Shown here: positions 21,001 to 30,000 of the stretch, piece by piece | Layout of the letters: each line of letters opens with the position of its first letter | Position numbering within the stretch: position 1 is the first letter of the stretch | NCBI RefSeq assembly: GCF_056746865.1 | Contig: NZ_CM163382.1 | DNA length: 64,000 nucleotides | Strand: one strand, 5' to 3' | Position numbers: made by a program

Positions 21001-24000
21001 GGACGCCGCCGGCATTTTCCGCCACATTGCCGCCAATCGAGCAGGCGATTTGTGAGGAAGGATCCGGCGCGTAATAGAGATTATGCGGCGCAACGGCCTG
21101 GGAGATCGCCAGGTTACGCACGCCCGGCTGCACGCGCGCGCGGCGACCAACGGGGTTAATGTCGAGGATCTCTTTAAAGCGCGCCATCACCAACAACACA
21201 CCTTTTTCCAGCGGCAGCGCGCCACCAGAAAGCCCGGTGCCTGCACCACGGGTCACCACCGGCACACGCAGGCGGTGGCAGACAGCCAGAATCGCCGTCA
21301 CCTGTTCCATCTGCTTAGGCAGAACAACCAGTAATGGACGCGTGCGATACGCGCTCAACCCGTCACACTCGTAAGGAATGATCTCCTCATCGGTATGCAG
21401 GATCTCAAGTCCAGGGACATGCTCACGCAGTGCCATCAGTACCGATGTGCGGTCGACATCGGGTAAAGCGCCATCAAGACGCTCTTCGTACAAGATGCTC
21501 ATGAGTAGGCTTCGCTTTGTTGTGTTGTGTGGCAGCTGATTTTTGCGCGCTGCTTCTGTGAACAGTTATTAAGCGGGCTTTTCGTTTTCGTCTATCTCTT
21601 TAGCTACCGGTCAGACCATTTTTTTTCCAGCTCTGTGACCTTGTCTTGGTTAACTCAATGTTAAATTGATGTAACATAATCACTTACGTGATGTGCGTGT
21701 TTTGCGAGTTAAGAACAGAAAAATTGGTCCTACCTGTGCACGAGGTCCGGGAATGAAAGATGAACGTCGCCCTATTTGCGAAGTGGTTGCAGAGAGTATC
21801 GAACGGTTAATTATCGACGGCGTACTGAAGGTCGGTCAGCCGCTTCCCTCGGAACGTCGACTGTGTGAAAAGCTCGGCTTCTCACGCTCCGCACTGCGTG
21901 AAGGGCTGACCGTGCTGCGCGGGCGCGGGATTATTGAAACGGCGCAGGGTCGCGATTCTCGTGTCGCACGGCTTAATCGGGTGCAGGACACCAGCCCGCT
22001 AATTCATCTGTTCAGCACGCAGCCGCGAACGCTGTACGATCTGCTCGACGTTCGCGCATTACTGGAGGGCGAATCGGCAAGGCTGGCGGCAACGCTGGGA
22101 ACGCAGGCTGATTTTGTTGTGATAACTCGCTGTTATGAAAAAATGCTCGCCGCCAGTGAGAATAACAAAGAGATTTCGCTGATCGAACATGCGCAGTTGG
22201 ATCACGCTTTCCATCTCGCCATTTGTCAGGCTTCTCACAATCAGGTGCTGGTGTTTACGCTGCAATCATTGACCGATCTGATGTTTAATTCAGTGTTTGC
22301 CAGCGTAAATAATCTCTACCATCGACCACAGCAAAAAAAGCAGATCGATCGCCAGCATGCGCGGATCTACAACGCGGTGTTGCAGCGGCTGCCGCACGTC
22401 GCCCAGCGCGCAGCACGCGATCATGTGCGGACCGTGAAAAAGAATCTCCACGATATCGAGCTGGAAGGCCACCATTTGATTCGCTCGGCGGTGCCGCTGG
22501 AGATGAACCTGAGTTAGCTGGTATTAAATTTGCTTTTCATACAATCGGTAACGCTTGTACGGCTCCGCCCCAATGCGTTCCAGCATGTTATTCATGCCTG
22601 TATTGGTTTCGAGGATCCATGACATCTCCAGCGCATCGATCTTCCGGCGGGCAAACGGATCGCGTAAGGCTTCAATCAATAACAGCGCAATCACCGGGCC
22701 GATGCGGCTGAACTGATACTCGTCGCGCACGCCCATCAGCGGTACTCGCGCAGTTCGCACACCGCTGACTTTCAAACGCCACAGCAATTTTGCCCAGCCG
22801 AAGGGAAAGAGCGATCCGTTCAGATCGGCAATCGCCTCGTTGATGTTCGGCAAGCCGACAATAAACGCGCAGGGTGCAGAATCAATCTCAGCGATATAGA
22901 TCATATCGTCCGGCACCAGATATTTAAGTTGATCGCCCATGGTCGCGAATTCATGTTCGGTAAACGGCACAAATCCCCAGTTGTGCTGCCAGCCAGAGTT
23001 GAAAATCTCACGCAGGATCTGCATCTCTTCGGCAAACCGCTGACGATTGATGCAGCGAATGGTCACCTTTTTGCGCACCTGATCCATCAGTTTTTTTAGC
23101 GCCGGAGAGAAAGTGAGATCGGTTCGCTGCATCCACCACGCCAGTAAATCAATGCCTTTGTGATAACCCAGTTGTTCAATATGCGCGGCATACCACGGTT
23201 TGCCGTGTGGCATCATCGCACAGGGTGGTGTGTCAAAACCTTCAATCAGTAATCCGCTTTCCTGATTGATATTCAGGCTGAAAGGACCGCTGATCTTACT
23301 TGCACCTTGTGACTTCAACCACGCTTCCGCTGCGCCAAACAACGCGGCAAAAACCTGCGGATCATCAATGGCGTCAATCATGCCGAAATGACCGGTATCT
23401 TTGCCGTAACGCTCGCGGTGCAAGGTATCTATTTGCGCGGTAATACGCCCAACTATCTGCCCCGCTTTTTTTGCCACCCACGCCTGCCAGATGATATGGT
23501 CCGTCCCCGGATTTTTCGCAGACAAATGCTCGTTGCGTTCAATGAATAAAGGGGGTATCCAGTTTGGATCGTCGGGATAAAGTGATGACGGAAAAGCGAT
23601 AAATGCCTTAAGGTCATTTTTATTAATTACTTTTTCAATTTTAATCATCAGCAGATCGCATTCCATAGTTCTGTTCTGTGGGTAACAAATAATTAACGGT
23701 GACAAACAGGTTGCAACAGCAACGAACGGCACCTTAATAATCAACCCAATGAATACAAACGACGAATAAATAGTATTTATTAATGATTACGATAAGGTCA
23801 GAGACTACACAGAAGCGCCACAATGCCTTTTGTCGATTTAAGGCGACCGGACAAGGCTTCTTCTTAATATATTCATAAATTAAATATCATTCACAATAAA
23901 AACAAAAAAACTCAAACTCATTATTTAAATCAATGTTCATTTTCACACTGATGAAAATACTATCTCATTTATCTTTTATGCCTATATAATCCACCGCATT

Positions 24001-27000: not shown

Positions 27001-30000
27001 AATTTAGTGACAACGGGTTAACACCGTTTGGCACCTGTATTGATGAAGTGTATTCCGCCACCGAAGGCCGGATCGGCAATAAAAAAGTGATTCTGGCCGG
27101 GACCAATAATTATCTCGGTTTAACCTTTAATCATGATGCCATCAGCGAAGGTCAGGCCGCGTTAGCGGCCCAAGGTACCGGCACCACCGGTTCTCGTATG
27201 GCAAACGGCAGTTATGCGCCGCACCTGGCGTTAGAGAAAGAGATTGCCGAGTTTTTCAATCGCCCTACCGCTATCGTTTTTTCAACCGGTTATACCGCTA
27301 ATTTAGGCGTCATCAGCGCACTTGCCGACCATAACGCCGTGGTGTTACTGGATGCCGACAGCCACGCCAGTATTTATGACGCCTGTTCTCTCGGTGGCGC
27401 GGAAATTATTCGTTTCCGCCATAACGATGCTAAAGATCTGGAACGGCGCATGGTTCGCCTCGGTGAACGGGCGAAAGAGGCGATTATCATCGTTGAGGGT
27501 ATCTACAGCATGCTCGGTGACGTTGCGCCGTTAGCGGAAATTGTTGATATCAAACGTCGTCTCGGTGGTTATTTGATTGTCGATGAAGCGCATTCGTTTG
27601 GCGTGTTAGGCGCAACGGGGCGCGGACTGGCTGAAGCTGTCGGCGTTGAAGATGATGTGGATATTATCGTTGGCACCTTCAGTAAAAGTCTGGCCTCGAT
27701 TGGCGGTTTTGCTGTCGGTTCGGAAGCGATGGAAGTGCTGCGCTACGGCAGCCGCCCGTATATTTTTACCGCCTCTCCTTCTCCGTCCTGCATTGCGACC
27801 GTGCGCTCGTCGTTAAGAACTATTGCCACACAACCAGAGCTGCGGCAAAAGCTGATGGATAATGCCAACCATCTGTATGACGGTCTGCAAAAACTGGGTT
27901 ATGAGTTAAGTTCACATATTAGCCCGGTAGTGCCGGTAATAATCGGTTCGAAAGAGGACGGTTTACGCATCTGGCGCGAGCTTATTTCGCTGGGCGTTTA
28001 TGTGAATCTTATCCTGCCACCTGCCGCGCCTGCAGGCATCACGCTGCTGCGCTGTAGCGTAAACGCTGCTCACAGTCGTGAGCAAATCGATGCCATCATT
28101 CAGGCATTTGCTACTCTGAAGCAGTAATGTGAGCCCGCCGTGGTGTTGCGCCACGGCGGGTTTAATGTTGTCTGTCATACCAATACACCAGGCTCAACGC
28201 CACCAGCACAAACGCTATCGGTAAACCGAGCGCGGTAACAGGTGCGCTCAACGCAAATAGCAATCCCAGATTGACCATGATTTGATAGCTGATCCAGGTG
28301 AGTAAGCCAACGATGACACCTACAGCGAGACGGCTACCCATCCCTGGCGAGCGCGGGGCGCTAAAGGTAAACGGCACAGCCAGCAAAATCATCGCCAGGG
28401 TCAGGATGGGTTGCCCCAGTTTTTCCCACAGTGCAAGGCGGTATTCGCTGCTGGGTTGCCCGGTTTCCTGCAAATAATGGATGTAATGATTAAGCTGACG
28501 GACAGAAAAAGTATTGCCCGGCATTGATAACTCTTCAAGATCCATACTGGTGAAGGCCGATTGCCAGGCAAGATTATCTAATGTTTCCAGCGTTTCTTTG
28601 CCATTCAGCCATTTTTTATGATTCACACCATGCAGGATCCACGTTTTGTCGTCTTCAATGGTGGCACTGCGTGCATAAATGTAGGATTCGAGCGAGAGAT
28701 CGTCGCGATAATGAAAAATCTCCACGCCCACCGGCTGGCCCTGCTCGTTCAGCGATTTCACCGTCACAAATTCATTACCACGCCTGGCCCACAGCATATT
28801 GCCGGTAATGTCATCGTCCTCCCCCAACGCGGTGGCGGTCGATTTGATTTGCAACGCCTGTTGCTGTAATGGCGACGCTACCCACTCATCTATCGCGCCT
28901 AACGAAACAGTCCACAATATCCCTGTAACCAGCGCCACCAGTGCAATACGGAAGATAGAAAACCCCATGCTGCGAATGGCGGTAAGCTCACTGTTTTTCG
29001 ATAACTGCCCCAGGCCGACAATCCCTCCCAATAAGGCGATAAATGGCGAAAGTTCGACCAGTGTGCGCGGTAAGGTCATTAGCACCACCAGCACCGCCTG
29101 AGTCCAGCGATAACCGCCCGGGCTGACATCATCCAGTTCGTTAATCAGGTTGAAGGTGGTAAAAAGCGGCAGCAATAGCCCTGCGGCGGCGGCAAAACCG
29201 AGAAAGAGATGACGGATTAAATAGCGGCTGAAAACATTCATCGGGAAAATTTCTGCAGCAAAGAGAAGTCGCGTGCGACCAGCATCAGCAGGCCCATTAG
29301 CATGAGTCCGGGTACTAACCACAAACCAGGAATGAGGGGAATCGCGCCGTTAGCCACCAGCGTACGGCAGACGTCACCGCCATAAAAAATGGCAATAAAC
29401 AGCAACGTCAGTGGCAATAACGTTGAAAATCGCCCTTGCCGCGGTTTTACCCGACTTAATGAAATGGCCAGCAGCGCCATCAACAATGCGGTCAGGCCAC
29501 GGCTTTGCCGCCATTGCAGTTCGGCATGATCGGCTGGAAAGACGGAGCGCGCCAGCTCCGTGACCGATTTCGCTTTGCGTTTGACGTTAGGGCTTTGATC
29601 CAGCGGATTCAGATGTAATTGCAGATTACGGTAGATCTGTTCGTTGTCATCACGCCCCTGATGATCGATAAGATAGGCAGTGCCGTTGTGCAACATAACG
29701 GTCGGTTTCTCGGGTGATGGGTCAATCACATCAACCGAACGGGCGCGGAAAATGCGGGTTCGATTGGCAGTAGAAGTATAAATCAGCGCGTCAGTCAGGC
29801 GATTATTATCCTGATCAACCGTCTGCGAAAGGATCATTCGTCCGTTATCGTTAGTGTTAAATTTCTTTGCCCGCAACTGGCGAACATCCAGCTCCGACTG
29901 CGACTGCTGCTCCAGTTGATAAATCTGCGCATAAGCCCACGGACGACCATACATCGACAGAAGGGTGACAAAAATACTTAGCGGTATCGCCAGATAAAGA

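What the first reader, a model, noticed from the sequence alone, without database searches (positions are those of the whole stretch)
22524..28127. Candidate sphingolipid-like (ceramide-type) or aminolipid biosynthesis core: acyl-AMP ligase, reductase, ACP, alpha-oxoamine synthase, with divergent YghO acyltransferase
Seen in sequence: four co-directional genes with overlapping stop/start junctions (ATGA at 25761, TAATG at 26955). They encode an AMP-binding ligase (YTSGSTRFPRGV), a Rossmann-fold epimerase/dehydratase-type reductase (VTGATGFIGKYI), a standalone ACP (DLGLES) and a PLP-dependent alpha-oxoamine synthase (GTFSKSLASIGGF). YghO, a roughly 375-aa putative acyltransferase, is transcribed divergently from a shared AT-rich promoter region. 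Established knowledge: alpha-oxoamine synthases condense an amino acid with an acyl thioester (serine palmitoyltransferase, BioF, Kbl, CqsA). The bacterial ceramide pathway described in Caulobacter uses exactly this set: Spt, dedicated ACP, acyl-ACP synthetase, an epimerase/dehydratase-fold reductase (CerR) and a GNAT-type ceramide synthase. Inference: this locus may make a long-chain amino-alcohol base that is N-acylated and reduced. E. coli is not generally regarded as a sphingolipid producer and I know of no assigned product for these genes. The locus looks compositionally native by eye, so it is probably ancestral accessory DNA lost in K-12 rather than a recent import.
Basis: partly seen in the sequence, partly recalled or inferred. 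Interest (0 to 1): 0.9.

Follow-up and report, generated by a model that had tools for sequence, protein, structure and literature searches.

The report
E. coli ceramide (sphingolipid) gene cluster
This is a real and intact set of genes for making ceramide-type lipids in E. coli, carried by about three quarters of strains and lost from K-12, but it has already been published, partly tested in the laboratory and annotated in RefSeq, so only its natural product and role remain open.

Summary
Four co-directional genes sit opposite yghO: a fatty acyl-AMP ligase, an extended-SDR reductase, an ACP and an alpha-oxoamine synthase. The ATGA and TAATG junctions are as described.

- **Synthase:** it passes NCBI's curated serine palmitoyltransferase model (599 bits, cutoff 500) and fails the BioF, Kbl, CqsA and ALAS models.
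- **YghO:** it models as a tandem-GNAT acyltransferase. It is 47% identical to the protein at the ceramide-synthase position of the Caulobacter cluster.
- **Identity with BL21(DE3):** the window proteins are 99-100% identical to ECD_02850-02854.
- **Published tests:** Padilla-Gómez et al. 2022 named this five-gene set. [quoted passage not shown]
- **RefSeq:** it already labels the gene "spt".
- **K-12:** the locus was lost through an 8.4-kb IS5-associated deletion.
- **Wider module:** the functional unit is about 13 kb. It adds LptF/LptG paralogues, which a 2026 preprint on Caulobacter links to sphingolipid export and draws for E. coli UTI89. It also adds a Wzx-like flippase (YghQ), a YtfJ-like protein, a CHAD-like protein and three P-loop kinase-like proteins.

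Still open are the native product, its head group and the conditions of expression.

The parts
22524..23666 (-). yghO: bacterial ceramide synthase (bCerS/'aca') orthologue, an N-acyltransferase with a tandem GNAT fold. The start is probably at 23648 (374 aa).
23667..24045 (.). AT-rich divergent intergenic region between yghO and the aasR operon. It is presumed to hold the promoters and control sites.
   Evidence: GC 0.42-0.43. Sequence read. The promoter scan is not above chance. No Rfam family. K-12's IS5-associated deletion starts inside the yghO 5' end at 23627 and removes this region.
24046..25764 (+). aasR: fatty acyl-AMP ligase that loads fatty acid onto the dedicated ACP (acyl-AcpR synthetase).
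   Evidence: NF006624 fatty acyl-AMP ligase, 878 bits against a cutoff of 600. 99.5% identical to BL21(DE3) ECD_02851. AasREc acylates AcpREc but not the Caulobacter AcpR in vivo (PMC9386255).
25761..26675 (+). cerR ('epi'): extended-SDR, NDUFA9-like keto-reductase. It is translationally coupled to aasR by an ATGA overlap.
   Evidence: GATGFIG and YAKSK motifs. Nearest solved relatives are extended SDRs and the complex-I NDUFA9 subunit. 38% identity over 280 aa to the gene between aasR and acpR in C. segnis. ECD_02852 was proposed as the reductase.
26707..26955 (+). acpR: dedicated acyl carrier protein, with the phosphopantetheine site at Ser39 in DLGLES.
   Evidence: Matches ACP models only below their cutoffs, so it is a divergent ACP. 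100% identical to ECD_02853, which is labelled by beta-[3H]alanine.
26955..28127 (+). spt: serine palmitoyltransferase, joined to acpR by a TAATG junction.
   Evidence: NF047599, 599 bits against a cutoff of 500. BioF, Kbl, CqsA and ALAS are all below their cutoffs. PDB ranking: SPT 375 bits, Kbl 204, BioF 175, CqsA 125. H159, D231, H234, K265 and R390 are conserved. 100% identical to ECD_02854, which was assayed with L-[14C]serine.
28162..29241 (-). lptG2: paralogue of the LPS-export permease LptG and a candidate sphingolipid exporter subunit.
   Evidence: TIGR04408, 309 bits. Only 28% identical to the canonical E. coli LptG. ATGA overlap with lptF2. Found near yghO homologues in 31 of 48 loci. 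Caulobacter LptF2/G2 bind each other and LptB (bioRxiv 10.64898/2026.04.12.717747).
29238..30308 (-). lptF2: paralogue of LptF and partner of LptG2.
   Evidence: TIGR04407, 318 bits. 29% identical to the canonical LptF. Found in 29 of 48 loci.
30339..30902 (-). YtfJ-family protein with an N-terminal signal-like sequence. Its role is unknown. It belongs to the enterobacterial module.
   Evidence: TIGR01626, 212 bits against a cutoff of 151. It stays with the module in Pluralibacter, Shimwellia, Hafnia and Pseudocitrobacter at different chromosomal sites.
30911..31735 (-). 274-aa CHAD-like all-helical protein ('Ybl138') of unknown function, coupled to yghQ by a TGATG junction.
31735..33084 (-). 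yghQ: Wzx/MOP-type flippase (Polysacc_synt family), counterpart of Caulobacter CC_1166. K-12 has lost its 3' end.
   Evidence: Weak MOP flippase match. Homologues carry PF01943. CC_1166 carries IPR002797, described there as an oligosaccharide-transport (flippase) domain; that this corresponds to Pfam PF01943 is my own knowledge. The K-12 deletion ends at 32015.
33130..34633 (-). yghR (33130..33888) and yghS (33920..34633): paralogous P-loop proteins resembling dTMP kinase, upstream on the same strand as yghQ.
   Evidence: They match dTMP-kinase models only far below cutoff (24-32 bits against 83) and give weak AAA and Thymidylate_kin Pfam hits. Homologues lie beside spt clusters in Serratia, Pseudomonas marginalis and a betaproteobacterium.
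34807..35499 (+). yghT: third P-loop paralogue, divergent from yghS. It is the likely outer edge of the module.
   Evidence: pitB follows.

Best explanation
The locus is the E. coli version of the proteobacterial ceramide pathway first worked out in Caulobacter.

**Shown for the identical BL21(DE3) proteins in published work**
- AasR activates a free fatty acid and transfers it to the phosphopantetheine arm of the dedicated carrier protein AcpR.

**Inferred from orthology, fold and synteny**
- YghO is the bacterial ceramide synthase. It N-acylates the long-chain base.
- The SDR protein (CerR) reduces the 3-keto group to give dihydroceramide. The order of these two steps is debated for Caulobacter.

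**Inferred from neighbours and Caulobacter data**
- The convergent operon yghS-yghR-yghQ-(CHAD-like)-(YtfJ-like)-lptF2-lptG2 handles the lipid after synthesis.
- YghQ flips it across the inner membrane.
- LptF2/LptG2, powered by the housekeeping LptB, extract it for transport to the outer membrane.

The module is ancestral in Escherichia and under purifying selection. It sits between glcC and pitB in about 75% of strains. K-12 lost it through an IS5-associated deletion. It appears silent in standard laboratory culture, so the natural product and its head group are unknown.
For: - **Spt family scores:** 599 bits (cutoff 500). BioF scores 333 (cutoff 426), Kbl 297 (460), CqsA-type 221 (428) and ALAS 219 (339).
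- **PDB ranking and catalytic residues:**
- **Tree:** a neighbour-joining tree places it with the Spt homologues encoded beside yghO homologues in 12 other genomes, including Caulobacter segnis. It is 52% identical to that Spt and 30-31% identical to E. coli's own BioF and Kbl.
- **Ligase:** FAAL model, 878 bits.
- **Synteny:** C. segnis has the same order aasR-cerR-acpR-spt...lptF2-lptG2-cerS, with 38-51% identities.
- **Co-location:** spt, acpR and cerR are within 10 kb of yghO homologues in 29 of 48 loci. lptF2 or lptG2 are there in 29-31 of 48.
- **Identity with BL21(DE3):** 99-100%.
- **Published experiments on those proteins (PMC9386255):** phosphopantetheinylation of AcpREc; a lipid migrating like 3-oxo-sphinganine from AasREc+AcpREc+SPTEc; the L-[14C]serine assay; the five-gene assignment including yghO.
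- **Caulobacter LptF2/G2:** lptF2 and lptG2 could be deleted only when spt or cpgB was also deleted, not while the anionic sphingolipid was being made, and they bind LptB. The E. coli UTI89 locus is drawn in that preprint.
- **Purifying selection:** dN/dS 0.03-0.15.
- **Prevalence:** 4051-4068 of 5426 genomes.
- **K-12 deletion:**
Against: - No sphingolipid was found reported from wild-type E. coli in the papers searched. BL21(DE3) with empty vectors shows no such lipids on TLC although it carries the intact locus.
- YghO and CerR from E. coli have not been assayed. Their roles rest on 38-47% identity, fold and synteny.
- The published E. coli product was identified by TLC co-migration. The mass-spectrometric confirmation cited there was for the Caulobacter enzymes.
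- The E. coli module lacks the Caulobacter head-group genes, including the ceramide kinase CpgB. It carries other genes instead, so the final product may not be plain ceramide.
- No LptC2 or second LptB is present, and the export role of LptF2/G2 in E. coli is untested.
Confidence: 0.85

Rival explanations
1. The genes can make ceramide but are cryptic. They are silenced or expressed only in a niche that has not been sampled, so that E. coli in practice makes no sphingolipid. The locus would be a conserved but conditionally used accessory trait. This concerns physiology rather than biochemistry, and it partly overlaps the best explanation.
For: Empty-vector BL21(DE3) shows no sphingoid lipids on TLC despite an intact locus. 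The control region is AT-rich. K-12 and about 25% of strains live without it. I found no paper reporting native E. coli sphingolipids.
Against: dN/dS is 0.03-0.15 across all ten genes against a divergent Escherichia. The ORFs are intact at 96-100% identity in about 4050 genomes. The module keeps its integrity while moving between chromosomal sites in other Enterobacterales. All of this indicates regular use somewhere.
Confidence: 0.3
2. The end product is not plain dihydroceramide. It would be a sphingolipid with a head group not yet described, installed by the module's enterobacterial-specific genes (the P-loop kinase-like YghR/YghS/YghT and the CHAD-like protein). It would then be flipped by YghQ and exported by LptB2F2G2.
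For: yghS, yghR, yghQ, the CHAD-like gene, the ytfJ-like gene, lptF2 and lptG2 lie on one strand with tight or overlapping junctions. YghR/S-like genes sit beside spt clusters in Serratia, Pseudomonas marginalis and a betaproteobacterium. The CHAD-like fold has close structural relatives in Sphingomonas, Zymomonas, Acetobacter and Gluconobacter. The Caulobacter head-group genes are absent.
Against: There is no biochemical evidence. YghR/S/T match kinase models only weakly. CHAD domains are known for binding polyphosphate, not lipids. Co-location could reflect shared regulation only. K-12 keeps yghRST without the ceramide genes.
Confidence: 0.25
3. The synthase condenses an acyl thioester with an amino acid other than serine, or makes an alpha-hydroxyketone signal as CqsA does. 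The product would then be a non-sphingoid aminolipid or an autoinducer.
For: Alpha-oxoamine synthases are a versatile family. The Arg378 of the Sphingomonas SPT is Leu here.
Against: The CqsA-type model scores 221 bits against a cutoff of 428, and CqsA structures score 125 bits against 375 for SPT. The Leu at the Arg378 position is shared by the whole clade, including Caulobacter segnis Spt. [quoted passage not shown]
Confidence: 0.04
4. The synthase is a spare BioF or Kbl for biotin or threonine metabolism, and the neighbouring genes are unrelated.
For: It has 30-31% identity to E. coli BioF and Kbl and the same fold family.
Against: It is below the curated cutoffs of both families. It is translationally coupled to a dedicated ACP. 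The five-gene association is conserved across phyla.
Confidence: 0.01

Closest known systems
E. coli BL21(DE3) ECD_02850-ECD_02854 (yghO/aca, aasR, epi, acpR, spt), described by Padilla-Gómez et al. 2022, Front Microbiol 13:961041 (PMC9386255)
   Same: It is the same locus. The proteins are 99-100% identical (Spt and AcpR 100%), in the same order and the same chromosomal position.
   Different: Nothing of substance differs. The window comes from another strain, with 99.9% DNA identity over 11.8 kb.
Caulobacter crescentus ceramide genes CC_1165-CC_1162 plus CC_1154 (aasR, cerR, acpR, spt, cerS; CCNA_01223-01220, CCNA_01212), within the 17-gene cluster CC_1168-CC_1152
   Same: The five core genes match. 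The order aasR-cerR-acpR-spt is the same. lptF2, lptG2 and a Polysacc_synt-type flippase are linked in both. Identities to the C. segnis proteins are 38-51%.
   Different: E. coli lacks the ceramide-phosphoglycerate genes (CC_1161-1158, 1153, 1152), CC_1167 and LptC2. It adds a YtfJ-like protein, a CHAD-like protein and three P-loop proteins. cerS is divergent and adjacent in E. coli but about 8 kb away in Caulobacter. AasREc does not serve the Caulobacter AcpR.
Sphingomonas paucimobilis and S. wittichii serine palmitoyltransferases (PDB 2jg2, 2x8u)
   Same: They are the best solved relatives (375 and 372 bits). They align over the whole length, with PLP lysine K265 and H159, D231, H234 and R390 conserved.
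   Different: Arg378 of the RPPATP loop is Leu (LPPAAP) here and in the whole Caulobacter/beta/gamma clade. The E. coli enzyme best fits the 'beta-proteobacterial' NCBIfam model rather than the alpha one (599 against 428 bits). It prefers acyl-AcpR to acyl-CoA.
LptB2FG lipopolysaccharide extractor, and Caulobacter LptF2/LptG2 (Uchendu, Isom and Klein 2026, bioRxiv 10.64898/2026.04.12.717747)
   Same: The paralogues are full length and pass the LptF and LptG family models. The genes overlap as a pair and are linked to ceramide genes in many proteobacteria. The preprint draws the E. coli UTI89 locus.
   Different: They are only 28-29% identical to the canonical E. coli LptF/LptG. The module has no dedicated LptB, LptC, LptA or LptDE. 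Substrate and function are untested in E. coli.
Eukaryotic de novo ceramide pathway (SPT, KDSR, CerS)
   Same: The chemical logic is the same: serine plus an acyl thioester gives 3-ketosphinganine, followed by reduction and N-acylation.
   Different: The bacterial reductase is an NDUFA9-like extended SDR. The bacterial ceramide synthase is a soluble tandem-GNAT protein. From my own knowledge, eukaryotic CerS is a multi-pass Lag1/TLC membrane protein. The acyl donor for Spt is a dedicated ACP. The step order may differ.

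Membership tests
Serine palmitoyltransferase (proteobacterial Spt subgroup of the alpha-oxoamine synthases) | Scores above the curated Spt model cutoff and below the cutoffs of sister families (BioF, Kbl, CqsA-type, ALAS) | tested here: met
   NF047599 scores 599 bits against a cutoff of 500. bioF scores 333 (426), Kbl 297 (460), CqsA-type 221 (428) and ALAS 219 (339).
Serine palmitoyltransferase (proteobacterial Spt subgroup of the alpha-oxoamine synthases) | PLP-binding lysine and catalytic His/Asp/His/Arg of SPT (K265, H159, D231, H234, R390 in 2jg2 numbering) | tested here: met
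   All five align as identical residues in the phmmer alignment to 2jg2. R378 is Leu, but this holds for the whole clade, including Caulobacter.
Serine palmitoyltransferase (proteobacterial Spt subgroup of the alpha-oxoamine synthases) | Gene immediately preceded by a dedicated acpR, with aasR nearby | tested here: met
   TAATG junction between acpR and spt. aasR lies two genes upstream. The same arrangement occurs in 29 of 48 related loci.
Serine palmitoyltransferase (proteobacterial Spt subgroup of the alpha-oxoamine synthases) | Condenses L-serine with a long-chain acyl thioester to give 3-oxo-sphinganine | not testable with these tools
   Reported for the 100%-identical BL21(DE3) enzyme in cell extracts with L-[14C]serine, with the product identified by TLC co-migration (PMC9386255; identity).
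Bacterial ceramide synthase (bCerS / CC_1154 family) | Full-length homology to the Caulobacter enzyme at the syntenic position | tested here: met
   47% identity over 374 aa to the C. segnis ORF that follows lptF2-lptG2, the position of CC_1154. C. crescentus itself was not in hand.
Bacterial ceramide synthase (bCerS / CC_1154 family) | GNAT-type acyltransferase fold | tested here: met
Bacterial ceramide synthase (bCerS / CC_1154 family) | Genomic association with spt and other sphingolipid genes across taxa | tested here: met
   43 of 48 fully flanked loci carry spt or lptF2/G2 within 10 kb.
Bacterial ceramide synthase (bCerS / CC_1154 family) | N-acylates the sphingoid base or 3-oxo-sphinganine | not testable with these tools
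   Not reported for the E. coli protein. Ceramide-like spots in BL21 were only suggested to come from ECD_02850.
CerR (bacterial ceramide reductase, NDUFA9-like extended SDR) | Rossmann GxxGxxG and catalytic YxxxK of an extended SDR; NDUFA9-like relatives | tested here: met
   GATGFIG and YAKSK are in the translation. PDB relatives are extended SDRs and NDUFA9 subunits. No curated model exists, and the best NCBIfam hit (HpnA) is below its cutoff.
CerR (bacterial ceramide reductase, NDUFA9-like extended SDR) | Orthology to Caulobacter CC_1164 by sequence and by position between aasR and acpR | tested here: met
   38% identity over 280 aa to the C. segnis gene in that position. Named 'epi' ECD_02852.
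CerR (bacterial ceramide reductase, NDUFA9-like extended SDR) | Reduces the 3-keto group of the intermediate | not testable with these tools
   No assay of the E. coli protein was found.
AasR / AcpR (dedicated acyl-ACP synthetase and carrier protein) | A FAAL-type adenylating enzyme and a small carrier protein with a phosphopantetheine serine | tested here: met
   NF006624, 878 bits against 600. ACP models hit around Ser39 in DLGLES.
AasR / AcpR (dedicated acyl-ACP synthetase and carrier protein) | AcpR carries 4'-phosphopantetheine and is acylated specifically by its own AasR | not testable with these tools
   Shown for the identical or near-identical BL21 proteins by beta-alanine labelling and co-expression.
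LptF2/LptG2 sphingolipid exporter | Divergent LptF/LptG paralogue pair encoded inside a sphingolipid locus | tested here: met
LptF2/LptG2 sphingolipid exporter | Forms a complex with LptB and is needed once anionic sphingolipid is made | not testable with these tools
   Shown only in Caulobacter.
BioF / Kbl / CqsA (considered and rejected for the synthase) | Reaches the family's curated score cutoff | tested here: not met
   All are below cutoff. Identity to E. coli BioF and Kbl is 30-31%.

The most novel reading that the evidence does not exclude
Most E. coli, and many other Enterobacterales, may make a sphingolipid that has never been observed. Its head group would be installed by the module's lineage-specific genes (the three thymidylate-kinase-like P-loop proteins YghR/S/T and a CHAD-like protein). 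It would reach the outer membrane through YghQ and an LptB-powered LptF2/LptG2 extractor. It would be made only under conditions not used in the laboratory. That would add a fourth lipid class to the E. coli envelope and a new head-group chemistry to bacterial sphingolipids.
Probability: 0.2. Interest if true: 0.75.

Novelty: already known. Interest (0 to 1): 0.3.

Why it matters
E. coli is the reference organism for Gram-negative envelope lipids, and textbooks list only PE, PG and cardiolipin. Three quarters of strains carry an intact ceramide pathway under purifying selection, with its own Lpt-like exporter, and K-12 lost it through an IS5 event. The standard model strain is therefore unrepresentative on this point.

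This is already recognised in the specialist literature (Geiger and Klein groups, 2022-2026) and in RefSeq. The finding confirms published work and is not a discovery.

The open part concerns the lipid actually made in vivo, when it is made and what it does for gut or extra-intestinal E. coli. It also concerns what YghR/S/T, the CHAD-like protein and the YtfJ-like protein contribute. These questions are directly testable, and the answers would be of real interest for outer-membrane biology and host interaction.

Tried and rejected
- **Profiles on YghO:** Pfam and NCBIfam scans found nothing. Only the structure prediction revealed the GNAT fold.
- **Locus search:** A 14-sequence alignment worked.
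- **Paper not held:** Stankeviciute et al. 2022 (PMC8891067) is not in the library. Its content is cited only as described by other papers.
- **YghR/S/T as the bacterial ceramide kinase:** I considered this and rejected it. CpgB is a DAG-kinase-like enzyme with a GGDG motif, whereas YghR/S/T are P-loop proteins.
- **Arg378 to Leu in Spt:** I considered whether this signals a different substrate and rejected it. The whole clade, including Caulobacter, has Leu.
- **CHAD-like family in other loci:** an HMM search of the other fetched loci found it only in Enterobacterales and Xanthomonadales, and not in the C. segnis cluster.
- **Other null results:** the promoter scan of the intergenic region is not above chance. 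Rfam finds nothing in 21500-36000. Sequence searches of YghR and the 274-aa protein against PDB were empty. dN/dS against Shimwellia failed because synonymous sites are saturated.
- **Literature:** searches for native E. coli sphingolipids, or for functional work on yghQ/R/S/T, found only incidental mentions.

Full report
**Observation.** The ORF list shows yghO on the minus strand (22524..23666 by the RefSeq start, more likely 23648). On the plus strand lie a 572-aa ligase (24046..25764), a 304-aa SDR (25761..26675), an 82-aa ACP (26707..26955) and a 390-aa aminotransferase-fold protein (26955..28127). The intergenic region is AT-rich, with GC 0.42-0.43. A consensus promoter scan there is not above chance and no Rfam family matches.

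**What the five proteins are.**
- **Synthase.** It passes NCBI's curated equivalog model for serine palmitoyltransferase (NF047599, 599 bits, cutoff 500). It falls below the cutoffs of BioF, Kbl, the CqsA-type synthase and ALAS. Against solved structures, the Sphingomonas SPTs score 372-375 bits, Sphingobacterium SPT 264, Kbl 204, BioF 175 and CqsA 125. The residues H159, D231, H234, K265 and R390 are conserved. R378 of the Sphingomonas enzyme is Leu here, but the whole clade shares this, including Caulobacter segnis Spt. In a neighbour-joining tree the protein sits inside the Spt clade. It is 52% identical to the Caulobacter Spt and 30-31% identical to E. coli's own BioF and Kbl.
- **Ligase.** It is a fatty acyl-AMP ligase (NF006624, 878 bits against 600).
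- **Reductase.** It has the GxxGxxG and YxxxK motifs. Its nearest solved relatives are extended SDRs and the NDUFA9 subunit of complex I.

**Relatives elsewhere.** The YghO family is large, with 6485 cluster representatives. A scan of one genome per species returned 80 loci. Of the 48 with full 10-kb flanks, 29 carry spt, acpR and cerR near the yghO homologue, 26 carry aasR, and 29-31 carry LptF/LptG paralogues. In total 43 of 48 carry spt or the Lpt paralogues. The Caulobacter segnis locus has the order aasR-cerR-acpR-spt...lptF2-lptG2-cerS, the same as published for CC_1165 to CC_1154. Its identities to the window proteins are 38% (CerR), 45% (AcpR), 51% (Spt) and 47% (YghO).

**The literature already covers this.**
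- Padilla-Gómez et al. 2022 (PMC9386255) list E. coli BL21(DE3) ECD_02851 (aasR), 02852 (epi), 02853 (acpR), 02854 (spt) and yghO ECD_02850 (aca) as the five dihydroceramide genes. They note that these are clustered only in Caulobacter and E. coli BL21.
- They show that AcpREc incorporates beta-alanine. [quoted passage not shown] - I fetched the BL21(DE3) region. The window proteins are 99-100% identical to it, with Spt and AcpR identical.
- RefSeq annotates the gene as 'spt: serine palmitoyltransferase'.
- A 2026 preprint shows that in Caulobacter lptF2 and lptG2 could be deleted only when spt or cpgB was also deleted, not while the anionic sphingolipid CPG2 was being made, and that the two proteins bind LptB. 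It draws the E. coli UTI89 sphingolipid operons alongside.

**Extent and history of the locus.** The unit is larger than the finding. Convergent with spt is a minus-strand run: yghS, yghR, yghQ, a 274-aa gene, a ytfJ-family gene, lptF2 and lptG2. The junctions yghQ/274-aa (TGATG) and lptF2/lptG2 (ATGA) overlap. yghT is divergent from yghS.
- LptF2 and LptG2 pass the Lpt family models but are only 29% and 28% identical to the canonical LptF and LptG.
- YghQ homologues carry Pfam PF01943 (Polysacc_synt). The proposed Caulobacter flippase CC_1166 carries the corresponding InterPro domain IPR002797.
- The same gene set travels together at other chromosomal sites in Serratia and Pluralibacter and in other Enterobacterales.
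- In E. coli the 13-kb module lies between glcC and pitB in 4051 of 5426 complete genomes.
- MG1655 has IS5 in place of window positions 23627..32015. This removes the yghO start, the control region, aasR, cerR, acpR, spt, lptG2, lptF2, the ytfJ-like gene, the 274-aa gene and the 3' end of yghQ.
- Against a divergent Escherichia, all ten genes from yghO to yghQ have dN/dS of 0.03-0.15.

**Mechanism.**
- *Shown in the literature for identical proteins.* AasR loads a fatty acid on holo-AcpR. [quoted passage not shown]
- *Inferred.* YghO N-acylates the base and CerR reduces the 3-keto group, giving dihydroceramide. Two orders of these steps have been proposed for Caulobacter.
- *Inferred from neighbours and Caulobacter data.* YghQ flips the lipid, and LptB plus LptF2/LptG2 extract it toward the outer membrane.

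**What remains open.** BL21(DE3) with empty vectors shows no sphingoid lipids on TLC, and I found no report of native E. coli sphingolipids.

The E. coli module lacks the Caulobacter ceramide-phosphoglycerate genes, including the DAG-kinase-like ceramide kinase. Instead it carries the following:
- a YtfJ-family protein with a signal-like N-terminus;
- three paralogous P-loop proteins that only faintly resemble dTMP kinase;
- a 274-aa protein with no sequence family.

**Verdict.** Interest is low to moderate as a finding. The untested native product and the accessory genes are the part worth experiments.

Noticed in passing
window 30911..31735 (-): The 274-aa 'hypothetical protein' ('Ybl138') has no Pfam or NCBIfam family and only 344 sequence relatives in 5.8 billion proteins. 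It models confidently as a CHAD-like helical domain. Its nearest structural relatives (TM above 0.9, 28-42% identity) are in Sphingomonas, Zymomonas, Acetobacter, Gluconobacter and Komagataeibacter, genera known for sphingolipids.
   Followed up: partly
window 33130..35499 (yghR, yghS on the minus strand; yghT on the plus strand): These are three paralogous P-loop proteins. RefSeq names YghS and YghT 'dTMP kinase', although they score 24-26 bits against a cutoff of 83, so the name looks over-called. Homologues lie next to spt clusters in Serratia, Pseudomonas marginalis (L017) and a betaproteobacterium (L046).
   Followed up: partly
window 28162..30308 (-): RefSeq labels these paralogues 'LPS export ABC transporter permease LptG/LptF' because they pass the TIGR cutoffs. 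They are nevertheless only 28-29% identical to the canonical LptF/LptG at another locus. Genomes with this module therefore appear to have two lptFG pairs.
   Followed up: yes
L001 (MG1655 3129043..3130215) against window 22524..23666: K-12 yghO is annotated 'putative DNA-binding transcriptional regulator'. This does not fit the tandem-GNAT fold. The K-12 copy also has its 5' end replaced by IS5 sequence.
   Followed up: yes
hit H1, NZ_CP133919.1 (strain M21170): In this clinical isolate the locus matches in two pieces, with an ISEcp1-family transposase annotated under the match. This is an independent insertion-sequence disruption of the module.
   Followed up: no
L007 and L014 (Shimwellia pseudoproteus): This species has two yghO homologues. 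One sits in a full cluster. The second (74-75% identity) has none of the other module genes within 10 kb.
   Followed up: no
L057, L062, L070 (Luteibacter, Dyella): In these Xanthomonadales the yghO homologue has no spt or lptF2/G2 within 10 kb. A CHAD-like gene and a yghQ-like gene lie about 9-10 kb away, so the CHAD-like/flippase pair is linked to cerS outside Enterobacterales as well.
   Followed up: partly
window 34634..34806 (yghS-yghT intergenic): A genomic SELEX study lists an FlhDC binding peak between yghS and yghT in K-12 (PMC9962212). This may be a regulatory hint for the minus-strand operon.
   Followed up: no
window 8025..12611 (-), and 287..7827: There is a very long ORF (1528 aa) and a run of minus-strand ORFs upstream of the glc operon. 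I did not examine them. From memory of E. coli maps this would be yghJ/sslE and the adjacent type II secretion genes.
   Followed up: no
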